A DNA stretch of 64,000 bases, taken from positions 5,279 to 69,278 of the forward strand of contig CAKOPZ010000001.1 of assembly GCA_934101145.1 (NCBI GenBank), given 5' to 3'. Positions 3,401 to 42,608 of this stretch are shown piece after piece (position 1 is the first letter of the stretch; the number at the start of each line of letters is the position of its first letter). Made by a program: the position numbers and the translations under genes. Source of the stretch: an uncultured Clostridia bacterium. Lineage in GTDB: Bacteria; Bacillota; Clostridia; TANB77; CAG-508. Under the pieces are notes generated by a model. It worked only from the letters and a program-made list of their open reading frames with translations, did not search any database and was not told the DNA's origin.

Positions 3401-3655
3401 TCATCTAATAGAAAGTAATTCTTTGGAAGTCTGAAATTTCTTTTTTGGATATGGGATGGGTTCGTCAGTTCTGTATAAAAGGTAATCGATGCTTGTATGA
3501 TAATAATCAGCAAGTGATGACAATATCTCTAATGGGATACTTCTTTTATTTATTTCGTAATATGAATAGGCAACTTGTGATATATTAAGCATTTTGCTTA
3601 ATTGTTTTTGAGTAAGATCGTGATCTTCTCTTAGACTTTTTAGACGAGTTTCCAT
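3401..3655 (-). CDS. XRE-family helix-turn-helix transcriptional regulator
   Basis: 84 aa. N-terminal HTH_3 pattern (LKSLREDHDLTQKQLSKMLNISQVAYSYYEINKRSIPLEILSSLADYY). Divergent from the pilin-like locus. Confidence 0.85.
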   Translation of the reverse strand: METRLKSLREDHDLTQKQLSKMLNISQVAYSYYEINKRSIPLEILSSLADYYHTSIDYLLYRTDEPIPYPKKKFQTSKELLSIR

Positions 3656-3795: not shown

Positions 3796-5028
3796 ATGAA
3801 CAAATTAAATGGAGAGGAAAGAAGGTTAAAGCTGAAAAACAACACAGAGACAGGAATTACGCTAATTGCATTAGTCGTAACTATTGTGGTTTTAATAATA
3901 CTTGCAACAGTAAGCATCAATGCAGTGCTAGGACAAAATGGAATAATAGGGAAGGCAAAGCAGGCGAAGGAGTCATATGAAAAAAGTGTAAAAGCAGAAG
4001 ATACAGCAATGCAGGAATTACTAAATGAAATGGCACAATATAATGCAGGAAGTTCATCTGACGATGGAAAAGTTACATTACCAGATGGATGGGATGGAGA
4101 CAAAGTAAATCCAGTAAAAAGTGAAGATAACGTAGTTGTGCCAGTGCCAAAAGGATATACAGCTTCAACAGTTGAAGGGGAAAAGAGTGTATCAACAGGA
4201 TTTGTAATAAAAGAAGGAAACGATGGAAGCAAAACAGAAGGAATAAATGAATTTGTGTGGGTGCCTGTAAGTAATATATCAGATATATATGATGAGGCAA
4301 ATAATGCGGGACAATTATGGGAGTTTAGTGGAACAACATCTACAAAAATCACACCTTCAAGTAGTCGCGAGCCTAATATAGTAGTAGGTTTTAGGGGGAG
4401 TCTCGATGCAGACAACACTAATCTACAACAAGCAGGCTTATCAAGTACAGCAACAGCAAGTGATTTTAAGACACAATTACAAAATGAATTTAATGAGATG
4501 ATAAATAGTGTAAAAACATATGGAGGATTTTATATAGGAAGATTTGAAACAGGAAATCTCAGTCAAACAAAGGCAGTAGTGCAAAAGAATAATACAGATA
4601 TAGAAAGTCAAACATGGTATACACAATATAAACTATGTAAAACAATAAAAACAAATGATAATGTAACAACAAGTATGATATGGGGATGTCAATGGGATGC
4701 AACATTAAGATGGATGCAAACAAATACAAATTCAGAAGTGGCAAATTTTCCAACAAATTCAACTGGAAAGGGAAATTATAAAGATATAAATGGAAATGTA
4801 TTAATACCAACAGGATCAAACAGTAGCTATGCAGTAAATAACATATATGATATGGCAGGAAATGTATATGATTGGACAATTGAGGCAGGCAGTGCGAATT
4901 TTCGTGTTCTACGCGGAGGTGATTGCGGCGGTACAGGTTCGGATTACCCAGCTAGCTATCGTAGGAACGGCGATCCGACCGATATGGGTTTCTCCTCTGC
5001 TTGTAGGTCCACACTTTATATAAAGTAA
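3796..5028 (+). CDS. Pilin-like leader/TM anchor fused to an FGE-sulfatase (SUMF1, C-type-lectin-fold) domain protein
   Basis: 410 aa; RBS AAAGGAG. N-terminus ...ETGITLIALVVTIVVLIILATVSINAVLGQNGII resembles a prepilin-type cleavage/methylation segment, with Ala in place of the usual Glu at +5. C-terminal motifs GFYIGRFE, WGCQWDA, NIYDMAGNVYDWT and RVLRGG are typical of the FGE-sulfatase domain. Confidence 0.8.
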   Translation: MNKLNGEERRLKLKNNTETGITLIALVVTIVVLIILATVSINAVLGQNGIIGKAKQAKESYEKSVKAEDTAMQELLNEMAQYNAGSSSDDGKVTLPDGWDGDKVNPVKSEDNVVVPVPKGYTASTVEGEKSVSTGFVIKEGNDGSKTEGINEFVWVPVSNISDIYDEANNAGQLWEFSGTTSTKITPSSSREPNIVVGFRGSLDADNTNLQQAGLSSTATASDFKTQLQNEFNEMINSVKTYGGFYIGRFETGNLSQTKAVVQKNNTDIESQTWYTQYKLCKTIKTNDNVTTSMIWGCQWDATLRWMQTNTNSEVANFPTNSTGKGNYKDINGNVLIPTGSNSSYAVNNIYDMAGNVYDWTIEAGSANFRVLRGGDCGGTGSDYPASYRRNGDPTDMGFSSACRSTLYIK

Positions 5029-5421
5029 CCTGGGGCTAATCTGACGTAGGGACATAAAATTGGAAAAAATTACAAATGGAAAATAGTGTTTATGGACCTT
5101 GTCAAGTCTGGTTGTTTATGAGATAATAAAAATGTAGTTTTTTTCCAACATAAAAATGTAGGAAAACCTACATTTTTCTTTTTGCTTAAAAAGGTAAAAA
5201 ATGGTAAAATATAAGTGTTCAAAACAAATTTTACGAAAGAAGGTGTTTTTATGTATTATAATACGTAAAAAGAAATTACAACAGAAAATTTAGAGGACAG
5301 TTATTAACAAAAAGTAATAAAAGTATTGCAATTTGTGAGTAGCAAATGATAAAATGAAGAAGTGAAAAATAAACAAAAGGAGCACACAAAAGAAATGAAA
5401 TATGAAACCGTTGGGGCTGTA

Positions 5422-5443
5422 AGAGAGAGAGAGAGAGAGAGAG
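5422..5443. repeat. (AG)11 dinucleotide microsatellite
   Basis: 22 nt of uninterrupted AG repeats in the intergenic region between the two pilin-like genes. It lies inside a 19-codon mini-ORF (5395-5454) that has an AAAGGAG RBS. Confidence 0.95.
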
Positions 5444-5781
5444 CCACAGTTTAGCAAAATAAATATAGAAGAAAATAGAGGCAAAAAGCCTCTATTTGTG
5501 ATAGAGAAAAAGACAGAGAACAAACAGATTGTATTAAACAAGAAGACTGAAAAGTTTTTAAGGTTAATGCAGTTATAGAATAGTTTGTTATCTGTCTTTT
5601 TTGTGTGGTTGTTAGAATTGAACATATATAATTTGTGTGCTTAATTAAATGAGGTGATGTGCAGAAATAATGAATTATTTTGATTTTGTATGAAATTGAA
5701 GAGTTAGAAAATAGTTAAGATAAAATAAAAAATTATATTCGATGTAAAAATGAAATATAAATAAAAGGAGGAATTTATATA

Positions 5782-7051
5782 ATGAAAGATAAAAAAGAGA
5801 CAGGTATTACGCTTATTGCTTTAGTTGTAACAATAGTAGTTTTGATAATACTTGCAACAGTAAGTATAAATGCAGTACTAGGACAAAATGGAATCATAAA
5901 AAAAGCAAAACAGGCAAAAGAGATGTATCAGGAAGCAAAAACAAATGAAGAAATTGAATTAAATAGTTTATTTTCCGAAATGGAAAAATTTTTTGATGAA
6001 AATAAGGATTCTGTAGAAGGAACATTATTAGTACTTGAAGAAAATGAAGATAGCATAAAAGTAAAAATGACAAGAGATGGGGCAGAGAAATATCAATTTA
6101 GTTTGGATGGCACTAATTGGAGTCCTGAACAAGGTGAAGATGAATATACATTTAAGAATCTTGCCAAAACGATGGTTAATAATGAGAATTATCAAGAGAT
6201 AACTGGAACAGAATATAAAGTATATTCAAAAGTAATAGATAGTGATGGAGAGGAGTTTGTATATGGTCCTATATATGCAAAAACTTCAGTGATTGTAGAG
6301 GGAGATTCAAAATATTTGGAATACGAAGAAGAAAATGGAGAAATAACTATTACAGGAATATTATACAATCAGGATTATCAATTAAATAGTTTAGAAGATA
6401 TGGAGAACATGTTAGCATCTCCAGAAAAAATACTAATTCCATCATATATAGATGGAAAACCAGTTACAAGAATATCAGAAGAATTAATAAAAGAGATGAC
6501 GACTACATTAAAAGAAAAAGATGAAAATGTACATGTGTGGGCAAAAAATAATGAGCGGTTGGGGCTACATGGCTAATCAATTAGTAGTAAAAGAAACGGG
6601 TGATTATAGTCCATTAAAAATTTTTAAAAATGCCCAAGAAACTATTGATTTTTATTTATTGTATGAAAATGCATATAGAGTAATAAAGAAAGTAACAAGT
6701 GATCACGAGCTCGGAGAACCACAGGGGAACTTTAAAATAAGGTCTTATGAGTTAGTGATACCTCCTAGTGTAAAAGAATATGTGGATAATACTAAGATAA
6801 GTAGCGTAAAAACAAAAAATATTGTATATTCAAATAATAGTAATGAAAGAAATATAGTAATGACTAATCTCATTATTGGTAAGACAAGATTAAAATTAGA
6901 AAATTTTTTGGATTTTAATAATATAGATAAAAGTGATTATTCAAAGTTAACTTTTTTAGGAAAAAAGAATTTGAATGAAATACAAAACAACAGTAGCTTA
7001 AACATGGCATTAGAACAAGCAACTAATTCGGAAATTGAATTTATAAATTAA
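5782..7051 (+). CDS. Pilin-like leader/TM anchor protein with a different C-terminal module; needs a +1 frameshift at CGG 6556-6558 (a conventional annotation would call it split or a pseudogene)
   Basis: The two ORFs 5782-6576 (frame 1) and 6521-7051 (frame 2) overlap. Joined length is about 422 aa, versus 410 aa for the paralog. The N-terminal ~55 aa are near-identical to the 3796 gene. RBS AAGGAGG. The only in-frame CGG lies in the overlap. Confidence 0.6.
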
Positions 7052-32660: not shown

Positions 32661-32689
32661 AAACAGTATTGAAAAATTCAATACTGTTT
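32661..32689. terminator. Bidirectional terminator between sigG and the convergent DUF2207 gene
   Basis: AAACAGTATTGA (32661-32672) pairs perfectly with TCAATACTGTTT (32678-32689). Confidence 0.75.
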
Positions 32690-32694
32690 AAGTT

Positions 32695-34332
32695 TTAACG
32701 AAAGCCACCTCCGCCTCCGCCACCACCGAAGGAACCGCCGCCTCCGCCTGATGATGATGAAGAATTACTAGCAGAATTAGCAGAAGAAATGCTATGCGTA
32801 CACCAAGTGTTTACAAACAAAAAATTGTCATATGATGAATAGCATGATTCTTCTATTATTTCTGGATATAATTCTTTAAATTGTTTTGCAACTTGTTTTG
32901 CAATTCCAAACATTTGAGCATATATCAAATATTCCTCAAATAAATGAACTTCAATAGCTTCTCTTTCAGGTATTAGTGTATAATCTAGTAAATATCTTTT
33001 TAGTTCAGCAATATGCTTTATTTCTTCTGTTAAGTTTGGTTGGAAGGTATAAATGTTTTTGTTTATACCAAATATTTTTTTCTGATTTAATATCAATTCT
33101 TCAGATGTTATAAGTTTATTTTGTTCTCTTGAAATAATTGTGTCAAACCAAATTAGAATTTTTTCATGATGCTTTCTGCACCATTTTTCAAATTCTTTAC
33201 TTTCAAGTATACCATCTTGGCTTGCTTGATATAGCATGTTGAATAGTTCAAGTTCTTTATTATCTGTAATTTTTGAATTATCAGCATTAGATAAAACAAT
33301 AGCAGATTTTTTATTTATTTCTTTTATTATAACAATACCATCTTTAATCCATTTTAAAATAATTGAACCTAAGATATCTGTTTTATTTTTCAAAAGACCA
33401 CCTTGGTAAGCAAGATAATATGCTTTGTAAAGGTTATTACATGGGATATCTCTAAAATATTCTTTGGTATTTTTTAAATCTTTTTTTGTAACACCAAAAT
33501 TGTATTTTGATTGTCCGATAAATATAATTCCAAAAATAACAACAAAGAAAATTGTTAAAAAGATTGCTGATATTATTTCAGATAAATCAGTTTCATTTTT
33601 TTGGTTCTTCTGTGCTCCTTCTTCAGCCATATTAAAGTAATAATTAAAGTCATGATTTAATTTATTTGTTGCATTAAAAGTTCCTTTTGGAAATTTTGCA
33701 AGTATTGTCATGTAATCACTTGATGGAAGTGTTCCATCAGAATCCATTTCTATATATCCATTATGTACATAGGCAGTTCCTTTGTTACCATATCCCCATA
33801 CATTTACAGTATTTGTCATATTAAAGGTAGTATGAATTTTAATATAGACACTACCAATGGCATTTGAAAAATCATATGGAATAAGAGTCCAGTAAATCAT
33901 TTGATTTCCATCTGAAAGTTCAGACACAAAATTTGTAATATCATATTTTACAGTATAGGTATGAGAACCATATTTACTAATGCCCCAGCATAATTCCACA
34001 CCATTTGATATTTTGTTTATACCACATTTGTAAGCTTTAGATGAAAGTGAACCAGATGTATTCCAAGATGAAAGAGTATCATAGGTTTGAGTTTCATCAG
34101 ATACAACTAGATTTTGAATTTTGCTATTTCCTAAATTATAATATGGATGATATACTTCTGTTCCTTCTGATGCTGAGCATTTCCAAGTTTCTGTTACATG
34201 AGCTGTAGCAGAATTATCTACATATATATCCATAGAAATTTTACTAATTGAATTTGCTTTAACATTACTAAAAAGAGCAAGTACTGCAAGAAATAGTAGT
34301 GTTAGAAAAAATGTTTTAAGTGTTTTTTTCAT
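32695..34332 (-). CDS. DUF2207-type membrane protein with C-terminal poly-Gly tail (paralog 1)
   Basis: 545 aa. Signal peptide, extracellular N-domain, TM region, cytoplasmic part, and the tail SSSSGGGGGSFGGGGGGGGFR typical of DUF2207 proteins. Confidence 0.75.
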   Translation of the reverse strand: MKKTLKTFFLTLLFLAVLALFSNVKANSISKISMDIYVDNSATAHVTETWKCSASEGTEVYHPYYNLGNSKIQNLVVSDETQTYDTLSSWNTSGSLSSKAYKCGINKISNGVELCWGISKYGSHTYTVKYDITNFVSELSDGNQMIYWTLIPYDFSNAIGSVYIKIHTTFNMTNTVNVWGYGNKGTAYVHNGYIEMDSDGTLPSSDYMTILAKFPKGTFNATNKLNHDFNYYFNMAEEGAQKNQKNETDLSEIISAIFLTIFFVVIFGIIFIGQSKYNFGVTKKDLKNTKEYFRDIPCNNLYKAYYLAYQGGLLKNKTDILGSIILKWIKDGIVIIKEINKKSAIVLSNADNSKITDNKELELFNMLYQASQDGILESKEFEKWCRKHHEKILIWFDTIISREQNKLITSEELILNQKKIFGINKNIYTFQPNLTEEIKHIAELKRYLLDYTLIPEREAIEVHLFEEYLIYAQMFGIAKQVAKQFKELYPEIIEESCYSSYDNFLFVNTWCTHSISSANSASNSSSSSGGGGGSFGGGGGGGGFR

Positions 34333-41978: not shown

Positions 41979-42086
41979 TAGAATACCCTTGCTAAAGTAG
42001 GGACTTAAAAAAGTAGGAATACCCTTGCCAAAGTAGGGACTTAAAAAAGTAGGAATATCCTTGCCAAAGTAGGAACTTAAAATAGT
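41979..42086 (+). ncRNA. ToxI-like type III antitoxin RNA: three tandem 36-nt repeats
   Basis: Units at 41979-42014, 42015-42050 and 42051-42086 (consensus AGGAATACCCTTGCCAAAGTAGGGACTTAAAAAAGT; 3 mismatches in each outer unit). They are contiguous with no spacers, and lie directly upstream of a terminator and a ToxN/AbiQ-family gene. Confidence 0.8.
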
Positions 42087-42089
42087 AGT

Positions 42090-42117
42090 GTGACTGTTTT
42101 ATAGCAGTCACATTTTT
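42090..42117 (+). terminator. Intrinsic terminator between the RNA repeats and the toxin gene
   Basis: GTGACTG (42090-42096) pairs with CAGTCAC (42105-42111), then ATTTTT. This is the position characteristic of type III TA loci, where it sets the antitoxin:toxin ratio. Confidence 0.7.
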
Positions 42118-42131
42118 AATATGGAGGAAAT

Positions 42132-42608
42132 ATGAAGAATTTAAAGATCTATTATATAGATGAAAAATATATTAATTATTTACGAAAATATGATAAAAAT
42201 GTTGCATATAATAAGGATACAACAAGACCATATATAGGAATAGTATATACATATAATCATTTTAATTATTTTGCTCCATTATCATCTCCAAAATTAAAAC
42301 ATAAGAAAATAAATGAAAAAGCTATTGATATATTTAAAATAAAAGGTGGAGAGCTAGGTGTTATAAATATAAATAATATGATACCAACACCGATAGAGGA
42401 ATTAACAGAGGCATTACCAATTATAAAAGATATAAAATATAAAAAAATGTTAGAAGAGCAACTTACATATATAAATAATCATAAACAGGAATTATTAAAA
42501 AAAATAATACTATTTCAGAATATGTATAGAAAAGGTCATCTAAATAATAGAATTTTAGAGAGATGTTGTGACTTTAAATTATTAGAGGAACTTTGCAAAA
42601 AATATTAA
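42132..42608 (+). CDS. toxN: Type III toxin-antitoxin system ToxN/AbiQ-family endoribonuclease toxin
   Basis: 158 aa with RBS GGAGG. Family hallmarks: N-terminal YYIDEKYINYLRKYDKNV, RPYIGIV, YFAPLSSPKLKH, NMIP, YKKMLEEQLTYI, and C-terminal CDFKLLEE. Confidence 0.85.
   Translation: MKNLKIYYIDEKYINYLRKYDKNVAYNKDTTRPYIGIVYTYNHFNYFAPLSSPKLKHKKINEKAIDIFKIKGGELGVININNMIPTPIEELTEALPIIKDIKYKKMLEEQLTYINNHKQELLKKIILFQNMYRKGHLNNRILERCCDFKLLEELCKKY

What the first reader, a model, noticed from the sequence alone, without database searches (positions are those of the whole stretch)
4881..5028. GC-rich, NNC-codon-biased 3' tail of the FGE/C-type-lectin-fold gene looks like a DGR variable region, but no TR or RT is in the window
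Over 4881-5010 I count about 55% G+C against roughly 30% for the rest of the gene and window. The codons here are atypical for this genome and strikingly often NNC (cgc, tgc, ggc x2, tac, agc, aac, acc, ttc, tcc x2). The encoded sequence RVLRGGDCGGTGSDYPASYRRNGDPTDMGFSSACRS follows the RGG(SW)...SAxR...P...GFR scaffold. In diversity-generating retroelement target proteins with FGE-sulfatase/CLec folds, that scaffold carries the variable residues at the extreme C-terminus. Adenine-specific mutagenesis of an AAC-rich template repeat would produce exactly such an A-depleted, NNC-enriched patch. I found no template repeat or reverse transcriptase in these 64 kb, so any DGR would have to act in trans or be lost.
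Basis: partly seen in the sequence, partly recalled or inferred. Interest (0 to 1): 0.65.

Follow-up and report, generated by a model that had tools for sequence, protein, structure and literature searches.

The report
Remote DGR variable region, currently static
The GC-rich tail of this gene is the hypervariable tip of a surface protein, of the kind that bacteria rewrite with a diversity-generating retroelement (DGR). The retroelement is not nearby and this copy looks frozen, so it is a real but fairly ordinary example of a known system.

Summary
Bases 4881-5010 are 55% G+C and 18% A, against 30% G+C for the window and 43% A for the rest of the gene. This is the most G+C-rich stretch in the 64 kb.

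The gene (3796-5028) is one of a large family from uncultured gut Clostridia. Its members have a pilin-like N-terminal helix and an FGE-sulfatase/C-type-lectin C-terminus. Among relatives 64-94% identical, almost all variation falls on about 20 scattered codons in the last 45. 98% of the residues there belong to the set that adenine mutagenesis of AAY codons can produce.

More distant homologues (28-35% identical, same architecture) sit directly beside MutS-like / bAvd / reverse transcriptase / template repeat (TR) / RT-14 RNA cassettes. In one of these, the variable region (VR) differs from the TR at 22/42 adenines but only 3/64 other bases. Family variation falls on columns where that template has A (42/46 against 23/85, p=3e-13).

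No TR, RT, Avd or RT-14 RNA lies within -10 to +59 kb. I did not find the cognate template.

This VR is identical in at least 15 assemblies from several cohorts, so it is probably not being rewritten now. The gene is also a chimera of two paralogous target genes, with the crossover at 4267-4295.

The parts
3796..5028 (+). DGR target gene (410 aa): pilin-like N-terminal helix, middle domain, FGE-sulfatase/C-type-lectin-like C-terminus ending in the variable region
   Evidence: ORF. There are 5871 homologues, and the top 120 are 64-100% identical. The protein is 33% identical over its full length (E=6e-47) to a target gene that sits beside a DGR cassette.
3853..3930 (+). Hydrophobic N-terminal segment GITLIALVVTIVVLIILATVSINAVL, resembling a type IV pilin / pseudopilin class III signal but with Ala instead of Glu at +5
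   Evidence: Weak hits below threshold to GspG/PilA models recur at the N-terminus of four family members. N_methyl scores 19.8 bits against a cut-off of 21.2 in the L026 target. MshA and geopilin hits have E of about 0.9.
4267..4295 (+). Crossover zone of a recombination between two paralogous target genes. Upstream matches locus A and downstream matches locus B.
   Evidence: The last A-specific base is 4266 and the first B-specific base is 4296 (alignment A7). Both parental loci come from one sample.
4711..5025 (+). FGE-sulfatase / C-type-lectin-like domain (WGCQWDA..RW, NIYDMAGNVYDWT, RVLRGG)
   Evidence: PF03781 scores above threshold in P0007 (28.6 bits) and P0022 (31.4 bits) over the equivalent residues. 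A family profile hits SUMF2 (1y4j) at E=0.0067.
4867..5001 (+). Variable region (VR): the diversified stretch, 52% G+C and 20% A
   Evidence: 20 hypervariable codons of about 3 bits each. 98.2% of residues there are in the AAY repertoire. Variable columns coincide with adenines of a related template repeat.
5002..5028 (+). Invariant 3' end TGTAGGTCCACACTTTATATAAAGTAA. It sits where the IMH-like end of TR/VR homology would lie.
   Evidence: Invariant in all family VRs. In the L019 control, TR/VR homology ends at the equivalent point. The function is inferred.
5029..5045 (+). Motif CCTGGGGCTAATCTGAC just after the stop codon, a diverged copy of the CTGrryGCT..TA motif found after every related VR
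   Evidence: Comparison of flanks. The more distal conserved element CGAATCGWAAGATACG is absent from the window.
5152..5177 (+). Terminator-like hairpin followed by a T run, downstream of the target gene
3401..3655 (-). Divergent HTH_3 (XRE-type) regulator gene upstream. An HTH gene holds the same position in the cassette-bearing loci.
   Evidence: Pfam E=3.6e-14. Same arrangement in L012 and L019. No sequence similarity was detected to the one cassette HTH tested, that of L012.
5782..6576 (+). Neighbouring gene with the same pilin-like N-terminus but an unrelated C-terminus and no VR

Best explanation
Bases 4867-5001 are the variable region of a DGR target gene. The protein is a probable surface or pilus-associated ligand-binding protein with a C-type-lectin/FGE fold.

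Proposed mechanism. An A-rich template repeat with roughly 20 AAY codons is transcribed. A DGR reverse transcriptase, working with bAvd and a MutS-like accessory protein, copies it with misincorporation opposite adenines. The cDNA then replaces the VR. This leaves an invariant G/C/T scaffold with randomised former-A positions. That is why the patch is A-poor, G+C-rich and rich in NNY codons.

Status of this copy. It is a remote target: no cassette lies within -10 to +59 kb. Its VR is fixed across strains, so it is most likely a standing product of past retrohoming and is not being rewritten now. The gene is also a recombinant of two paralogous targets, and the VR came from paralogue B.

Shown: the composition, family hypervariability at AAY-type positions, homologues adjacent to cassettes, absence of a cassette here, VR invariance, and the chimeric structure.

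Inferred: the retrohoming history of this particular VR, the existence of a cognate template, and present inactivity.
For: 1. Composition is extreme for the window. It matches a verified control: in L019 the TR is 42% G+C and 36% A, and its VR is 49% G+C and 19% A, in a locus that is 22% G+C.

2. There are 59 distinct 60-aa tails among the top 120 homologues. Twenty positions carry about 3 bits of entropy while their neighbours are invariant. At 18 of these positions, 1043 of 1062 residues are in the 15-residue AAY set, against a 78.6% background (p=4e-82).

3. DNA alignment of VRs from six loci shows an invariant G/C/T scaffold.

4. A peptide built by placing Asn at the variable positions retrieved 15 short ORFs. 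Each of the three I looked up lies just after a reverse transcriptase gene. In two of them (L012, L013-15) the full HTH / target / MutS_I / bAvd / RVT_1 / TR cassette is visible; the third sits on a 731-bp fragment (L017). RT-14 RNA follows the TR in L012 and L013. RT homologues then led to two further complete cassettes, L019 (also with RT-14 RNA) and L026.

5. The L019 cassette is a bona fide DGR. Its VR and TR are 82.8% identical over 134 nt, with mismatches at 22/42 A sites and 3/64 non-A sites.

6. Using that TR as a yardstick, family VR columns vary at 42/46 TR-A columns and 23/85 others (Fisher p=3e-13). The template inferred from VRs alone is 86% identical over 100 nt to the real L019 TR.

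7. Targets adjacent to cassettes share the whole architecture with the window protein.

8. No cassette is present here.

9. The VR is static. The same protein occurs on 12 Hadza contigs. L001 and L002 differ at 83 sites in 21 kb, none of them in the gene. VR plus flank is 100% identical in L037 and L038, which come from other cohorts, while the gene body differs by 4-11%.
Against: - I did not find the cognate template (scaffold ...CCAGCTAGCAATCGT...GGTTGTAGGTCCACAC). It is absent from GTDB representative genomes, JGI metagenomes, IMG/VR, phage and plasmid collections, and among called ORFs.
- Every TR I recovered belongs to a related but non-cognate DGR. Against the L019 TR, the window VR mismatches at 18/64 non-A sites.
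- The window VR carries several substitutions at scaffold positions that cannot come from adenine mutagenesis: AGG at 4960-4962, ATG at 4981-4983, TTC at 4987-4989 and GCT at 4999-5001. Either its template differed or it has drifted.
- The ENA assemblies that hold this genome could not be searched at the DNA level, so a cassette elsewhere in the genome is not excluded.
- Three other family members also lack a cassette within 10 kb. No family member with this exact scaffold has yet been seen beside an RT.
Confidence: 0.85

Rival explanations
1. The VR is an active remote target. A cognate MutS-like / Avd / RT / TR cassette sits elsewhere in this genome, possibly on a conjugative element as in L019, and rewrites this VR in trans. 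The identical consensus sequences would then reflect selection or low activity.
For: Remote targets more than 100 kb from the RT are documented for cellular DGRs (PMC5758913). Family members are typically far from any cassette yet are highly diversified. The invariant 3' end and the motif just after the stop codon are retained. L007 and L018 differ by a single base in 1819 nt, and that base is in the VR.
Against: The VR is identical in 12 Hadza contigs and in assemblies from two other cohorts, while flanking DNA and the gene body have diverged. The distal conserved downstream element is missing here. Non-adenine substitutions sit at scaffold positions. No cassette was found in any searchable collection.
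Confidence: 0.22
2. The hypervariability has nothing to do with a retroelement. It comes from diversifying selection plus gene conversion among many paralogous adhesin genes.
For: Gene conversion and recombination among paralogues is clearly frequent. The window gene is an A/B chimera, and L037 carries a different gene body between identical flanks. The same VR occurs in proteins with different bodies, for example P0005, P0026, P0049 and P0062.
Against: Recombination cannot explain three findings: variation confined to columns homologous to template adenines (p=3e-13); a residue repertoire restricted to AAY derivatives (p=4e-82); and homologues with the same architecture that are physically linked to RT, Avd and a TR differing only at adenines.
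Confidence: 0.04
3. The G+C-rich patch is a compositional artefact. It would reflect either a foreign import or codon and structural constraint of the FGE motif, with no hypermutation involved.
For: The 3' half of the gene was indeed imported by recombination from another locus. The FGE motifs (RGG, PAS) are G+C-rich codons.
Against: The donor is a paralogue from the same genome type, not foreign DNA. The body of the imported segment has ordinary composition, and only the VR is G+C-rich. The patch is not conserved among homologues; it is the most variable part of the protein.
Confidence: 0.02

Closest known systems
DGRs with a MutS-like (MSL) accessory gene, 'Architecture D' of Wu et al. 2018 (PMC5758913), which includes the Legionella pneumophila DGR
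   Same: The related cassettes found here have a MutS_I-domain protein, then bAvd, RT and TR, all on one strand downstream of the target. The targets have an FGE-sulfatase/C-type-lectin VR at the extreme C-terminus.
   Different: The window holds only a target gene and no cassette. The hosts are uncultured low-G+C gut Clostridia. The targets have a pilin-like N-terminus, not a lipoprotein signal.
Treponema denticola DGR (TvpA) with up to seven non-adjacent targets
   Same: Multiple paralogous FGE/C-type-lectin targets are scattered round the chromosome, far from the RT.
   Different: Treponema uses an HRDC accessory gene and lipoprotein targets. For the window's subfamily the cassette has not been located at all.
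Bordetella phage BPP-1 Mtd / Brt / Avd, the DGR paradigm
   Same: Adenine-specific TR-to-VR information transfer, AAY codons, a C-type-lectin fold that displays the variable residues, and an invariant 3' end of the VR. This rests on established knowledge; the pattern was reproduced in the L019 control.
   Different: BPP-1 has a phage tail-fibre target in a cis cassette. Here the gene is cellular and remote, and no IMH or hairpin was demonstrated.
Bacteroides DGRs that diversify type V pilus tip adhesins (PMC11601372)
   Same: Gut bacteria in which a DGR diversifies a putative pilus-associated adhesin. Some of those DGRs are on mobile elements.
   Different: That is a different pilus system (type V, Bacteroidota) with different protein families. 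The type IV pilin-like nature of the proteins here is only weakly supported.
Rfam RF02921 RT-14 RNA
   Same: It lies immediately 3' of the TR in the related cassettes, at 90-100 bits against a gathering score of 48. That makes it a usable marker for this DGR clade.
   Different: It is absent from the window.

Membership tests
Diversity-generating retroelement (target gene / VR) | VR at the 3' end of an ORF, within a C-type-lectin/FGE-sulfatase (or Ig) fold | tested here: met
   The VR occupies the last 45 codons or so. PF03781 scores above threshold in homologues 82% and 75% identical, over the same residues. A family profile hits SUMF2 at E=0.0067. The window sequence itself is below threshold.
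Diversity-generating retroelement (target gene / VR) | A cognate TR that differs from the VR essentially only at TR adenines | tested here: inconclusive
   There is no TR in the window or within 10 kb upstream. The cognate TR was not found in any collection. Proxy tests are positive. With a homologous TR (L019), variable columns are 42/46 at A and 23/85 at non-A, p=3e-13. The inferred TR is 86% identical to the real TR.
Diversity-generating retroelement (target gene / VR) | A DGR-type reverse transcriptase (with Avd or another accessory gene) in the same genome | tested here: not met
   This was tested for the window and 10 kb upstream only, and nothing was found. The rest of the genome could not be searched. 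Homologues with the same architecture are adjacent to MutS_I / bAvd / RVT_1.
Diversity-generating retroelement (target gene / VR) | Hypervariability among close homologues, confined to scattered codons with the AAY-derived residue repertoire | tested here: met
   (98.2% in the repertoire against 78.6% background, p=4e-82)
Diversity-generating retroelement (target gene / VR) | IMH and a downstream hairpin that mark the VR as a retrohoming recipient | tested here: inconclusive
   The invariant 3' end and the proximal motif are retained. A distal conserved element present in other family members is absent. The function of these elements is not known for this clade.
Diversity-generating retroelement (target gene / VR) | Ongoing diversification (variants within a population or between strains) | tested here: not met
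   At consensus level, the VR is identical in 12 Hadza contigs and in L037 and L038, despite divergence elsewhere. Read-level data were not available.
Type IV pilin / pseudopilin (class III signal peptide) | N-terminal G|(F/M/I)TLIE motif with a hydrophobic helix; match to the N_methyl / TIGR02532-type model | tested here: inconclusive
   The sequence is ETG|ITLIALVV..., with Ala instead of Glu at +5. Only hits below threshold were obtained: GspG E=0.06 for the window protein, and N_methyl at 19.8 bits (cut-off 21.2) in the L026 target. No pilus assembly genes were seen in the window.

The most novel reading that the evidence does not exclude
The MutS-like / Avd / RT / TR cassettes of this clade are carried on conjugative elements, as L019 is with its VirB4, TraG and TrwB genes. 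They would act in trans on chromosomal families of pilin-like adhesin genes. A strain would then diversify its surface adhesins only while it hosts the element. Strains such as this one, which lack it, would keep frozen VRs and reshuffle them only by recombination between paralogues, which also rearranges the chromosome.
Probability: 0.12. Interest if true: 0.65.

Novelty: new member of a known kind. Interest (0 to 1): 0.4.

Why it matters
The result confirms that composition alone (an A-poor, NNY-rich, G+C-rich 3' tail on an FGE-like gene) can flag a DGR target even when the retroelement is absent from the sequence in hand.

It also documents a large, almost wholly uncultured gut Clostridia family of DGR-diversified proteins with pilin-like N-termini. 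The associated cassettes are of the MutS-like type and end in RT-14 RNA.

Two further points are useful for interpreting gut metagenomes. VRs can stay frozen across human cohorts. Paralogous target genes also act as recombination substrates that rearrange the chromosome.

None of this changes the known DGR mechanism.

Tried and rejected
Searches for the template or cassette:
- A near-copy of the VR in the window and in 10-kb flanks of four family loci: none.
- Exact-pattern scans for the scaffold or a TR-specific version. GTDB genomes gave only one other VR. JGI metagenomes gave nothing, then one further VR. IMG/VR gave nothing in four scans.
- blastn and tblastn against phage and plasmid collections: no match.
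- RT-homologue look-ups (P0204, P0213) found complete DGRs, but with non-cognate TRs.
- An HMM of TR-encoded peptides against 1.84 billion representatives found many TR-like ORFs, but none with the GCRSTLY family scaffold.

Other attempts:
- Linking proteins to one MAG through accession numbers failed because the collection holds none.
- The AlphaFold model from the shallow family alignment was unusable (pLDDT 36), so I made no fold search.
- A consensus fold of the conserved region downstream of VRs gave only a terminator-like stem.

Ideas dropped:
- I first read the different VR at the syntenic locus L036 as evidence of diversification at this locus. I rejected that once L038 showed that the window's VR came from paralogue B by recombination.
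- I also considered that the downstream genes form a mobile island. I rejected this because they are core division and sporulation genes.

Full report
**Observation**

Bases 4881-5010 are 55.4% G+C and 17.7% A. The rest of the gene is 43% A and the window as a whole is 29.8% G+C. The 120-nt window starting at 4881 has the highest G+C of any in the 64 kb. A 138-nt window over the variable region lies 4.6 SD above the mean, and only 0.04% of windows reach it.

Twelve of 43 codons end in C, against 5.9% in the rest of the gene. NNT codons are commoner still in the VR (48%), and NNA falls from 52% to 13%. The only other G+C-rich patch (32684-32823) is a Gly-rich tail of a DUF2207 gene on the other strand.

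**The gene and its family**

ORF 3796-5028 encodes 410 aa. It begins with a hydrophobic, pilin-like N-terminus (ETG|ITLIALVVTIVVL...). Its C-terminus carries FGE-sulfatase motifs: WGCQWDA..RW, NIYDMAGNVYDWT and RVLRGG.

Pfam does not score the window protein itself. It does score PF03781 above threshold in homologues that are 82% and 75% identical. A family profile hits human SUMF2 at E=0.0067.

The protein database holds 5871 homologues. The best 120 are 64-100% identical and almost all come from ENA gut metagenomes. The only match among GTDB species representatives is a Hadza MAG labelled 'uncultured Clostridia bacterium'. The window also carries ftsA, ftsZ, spoIIGA, sigE, sigG and spo0A-like genes, so the host is a spore-forming Clostridia member.

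**Signature of a DGR variable region**

In an alignment of 26 homologues the proteins are nearly invariant until the last 50 residues or so. From there, conserved and hypervariable positions alternate.

Among 59 distinct 60-residue tails, 20 positions carry about 3 bits of entropy and their neighbours carry almost none. At 18 of these positions, 1043 of 1062 residues belong to the 15-residue set reachable from an AAY codon by changing only its adenines. The background in the same proteins is 78.6% (p=4e-82).

At the DNA level the VRs share an invariant G/C/T scaffold, and the variable bases lie between scaffold positions.

**Finding real cassettes**

I built a peptide by writing Asn at every hypervariable position and searched the protein collection with it. 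It returned 15 short ORFs (45-93 aa) that read ...NTNNRVNRGGNYNN.GSNNPASNRNNNNP.N.N.N.GFR.TL....

I looked up three of these ORFs, and each lies just after a reverse transcriptase gene. Two of them, L012 and L013-15, show a full cassette: a divergent HTH gene, a target gene, a MutS_I-domain protein, bAvd, RVT_1, then the template repeat. The third is a 731-bp fragment, L017. RT homologues then led to two more complete cassettes, L019 and L026. Rfam RT-14 RNA follows the TR in L012, L013 and L019.

The targets next to these cassettes have the same architecture as the window protein, pilin-like N-terminus included. They are 28-35% identical to it (E=6e-47 for L019).

L019 is a clean positive control:
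- Its VR and TR are 82.8% identical over 134 nt.
- Mismatches fall at 22/42 TR adenines and only 3/64 other bases.
- Its TR is 42% G+C and 36% A, and its VR is 49% G+C and 19% A, in a locus that is 22% G+C. This is the same compositional step seen in the window.

This architecture corresponds to the MutS-like 'Architecture D' described by Wu et al. (PMC5758913).

**Tying the window's subfamily to that mechanism**

None of the recovered TRs is the cognate template of the window's subfamily. Against the L019 TR, the window VR mismatches at 25/42 A sites but also at 18/64 non-A sites. The TRs are homologous to the expected template, however, and so serve as an independent yardstick.

Across six family VRs, 42 of 46 columns aligned to a TR adenine vary, against 23 of 85 other columns (odds ratio 28, p=3e-13). 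The template I inferred from VRs alone is 86% identical over 100 nt to the real L019 TR. Aligned with 15 TR-encoded peptides, the window tail shows its variable residues where the templates have Asn.

**No cassette here**

- blastn with short words finds no near-copy of the VR in the window.
- tblastn with the MutS-like, Avd and RT proteins of two cassettes finds nothing at E<=1.
- No RT-like YxDD open frame exists in any frame.
- Pfam scans and the precomputed labels of the identical contig show only housekeeping genes among the plausible ORFs of 150 aa or more.
- Rfam finds no RT-14 RNA.
- The 10 kb upstream of the window are housekeeping genes (EF-Tu, NlpC/P60, ComEC, Sua5).
- Three other family members at different chromosomal loci also lack a cassette within 10 kb.

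Remote targets therefore seem to be the rule in this family. This is known for cellular DGRs such as that of Treponema.

**The cognate template was not found**

I scanned GTDB representatives, JGI metagenomes, IMG/VR, phages and plasmids. I also searched 1.84 billion protein representatives with an HMM of TR peptides. No template with this subfamily's scaffold appeared. This is the main gap in the argument.

**Is this VR being rewritten now? Probably not.**

- The exact protein occurs on 12 Hadza contigs.
- Two of those contigs differ from each other at 83 sites in 21 kb, with none in the gene.
- In L037 (another cohort) the gene body differs from the window's by 4-11%, yet the VR, the stop codon and the next 94 nt compared are 100% identical.
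- In L038 (a third cohort) the same VR sits at a different locus.
- The window VR carries changes at scaffold positions that adenine mutagenesis cannot make: AGG, ATG, TTC and GCT, where the family has NNC, AGY, AGN and GGT.
- A conserved element about 90 nt downstream of other family VRs is missing here.

Each point is only suggestive. Read-level data could overturn this conclusion.

**The gene is a chimera**

Sample ERZ27287288 holds two parental loci:
- Locus A: EF-Tu ... ClpC, HTH, target with VR_A, then PGI and Wzy (L036).
- Locus B: RecJ, RelA, HisRS, SpoIIP, target with VR_B, then a 264-aa pilin-like gene, topoisomerase III, alr and a helicase (L038).

The window equals locus A, at 99.93%, up to base 4266. 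From base 4296 onward it equals locus B. Homologous recombination between two paralogous target genes therefore made this gene and rearranged the chromosome.

The 'different VR at the same locus' in L036 thus reflects paralogue exchange, not local retrohoming. This recombination moves VRs about. It does not explain how they became diverse.

**Comparison and verdict**

This is a DGR variable region in a remote target gene. It is a new member of a known kind. Its relatives are MutS-like-type DGRs, as in Legionella, with scattered targets, as in Treponema.

The pilin-like N-terminus is an uncommon feature for DGR targets. One survey mentions a 'G-type pilin' domain only as scarcely represented (PMC11661182). 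It is supported here only by hits below threshold.

One of the related cassettes lies among conjugation genes. That leaves room for a more interesting scenario of mobile, trans-acting diversifiers, but I have no evidence tying it to this genome.

Noticed in passing
window 41981-42608: Three 36-nt tandem repeats (94% match) lie directly upstream of a ToxN toxin gene (PF13958, E=4e-40). This is a type III (ToxIN-like) toxin-antitoxin / abortive-infection module.
   Followed up: partly
window 11750-16903 and 17932-23061: Two adjacent ORFs of about 1710 aa, DEAD/ResIII/SNF2-like. Each ends in 5-7 tandem repeats of about 75 aa (222-228 nt) with the motif YEEVIEWLE.HEGKLP...EYAGVPIEEIPEEYREKIA.LREL. 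Most SNPs between the window and the Hadza contigs fall in the first of these.
   Followed up: no
window 4267-4295; L036, L038: The target gene is a recombinant of two paralogous loci that coexist in sample ERZ27287288. Paralogous DGR targets therefore act as substrates for chromosomal rearrangement. L037 additionally carries a different gene body between identical flanks, which points to a gene-conversion tract.
   Followed up: yes
L003 11243-11440, L019 8901-9100, L012 3498-3700, L026 4992-5190: A conserved region of about 190 nt lies downstream of VRs, both cassette-adjacent and remote. It has the motif CTGrryGCT..TA after the stop codon, a block (T)AACGAATCGAAGATACG(TT), a long GGAAATTTT...AAAATTCC hairpin, and then a terminator. 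It matches no Rfam family. The window keeps only the first motif.
   Followed up: partly
L019 1-21026 (also L020-L023): This DGR cassette lies among VirB4-like (AAA_10/TraG P-loop), TrwB/TraG-D coupling-protein, DnaB_2, IstB-like and GyrA-like genes, at 22% G+C. It is probably an integrative conjugative element or a plasmid.
   Followed up: no
L029-L035 (P0213 loci): The same RT sequence is indexed in 110 blocks of the collection (86 contigs). Seven of the ten contigs shown start inside the target gene just upstream of the cassette. This suggests assemblies break in the repeated or variable target gene.
   Followed up: no
window 5782-6576 and 5324-5524: A 264-aa gene shares the N-terminal 45 residues or so with the DGR target but has an unrelated C-terminus. 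Its 5' leader is 81% identical to the leader of the locus-B target gene. This points to a family of pilin-like genes with a common leader and N-terminal module.
   Followed up: partly
window 10072-11146: Alanine racemase is split into two ORFs (259 aa N-terminal domain, 89 aa C-terminal domain). It is called the same way in L001, L037 and L038, so it is a conserved frameshift or split gene and not a sequencing error.
   Followed up: no
L007 11215 / L018 1345: Two assemblies from different collections (ENA and the metagenome-contig collection) are identical over 1819 nt except for one base. That base lies in the VR (AGG against AGT, Arg against Ser). A random SNP would land in the VR about 8% of the time.
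   Followed up: partly
P0306, P0322, P0392: These short ORFs combine a TR-type leader (..GI.QK..STNNR..) with partly diversified, VR-like sequence ending in GCRSALYIK. They may be templates that have themselves been altered, or TR/VR recombinants. No context could be fetched.
   Followed up: no
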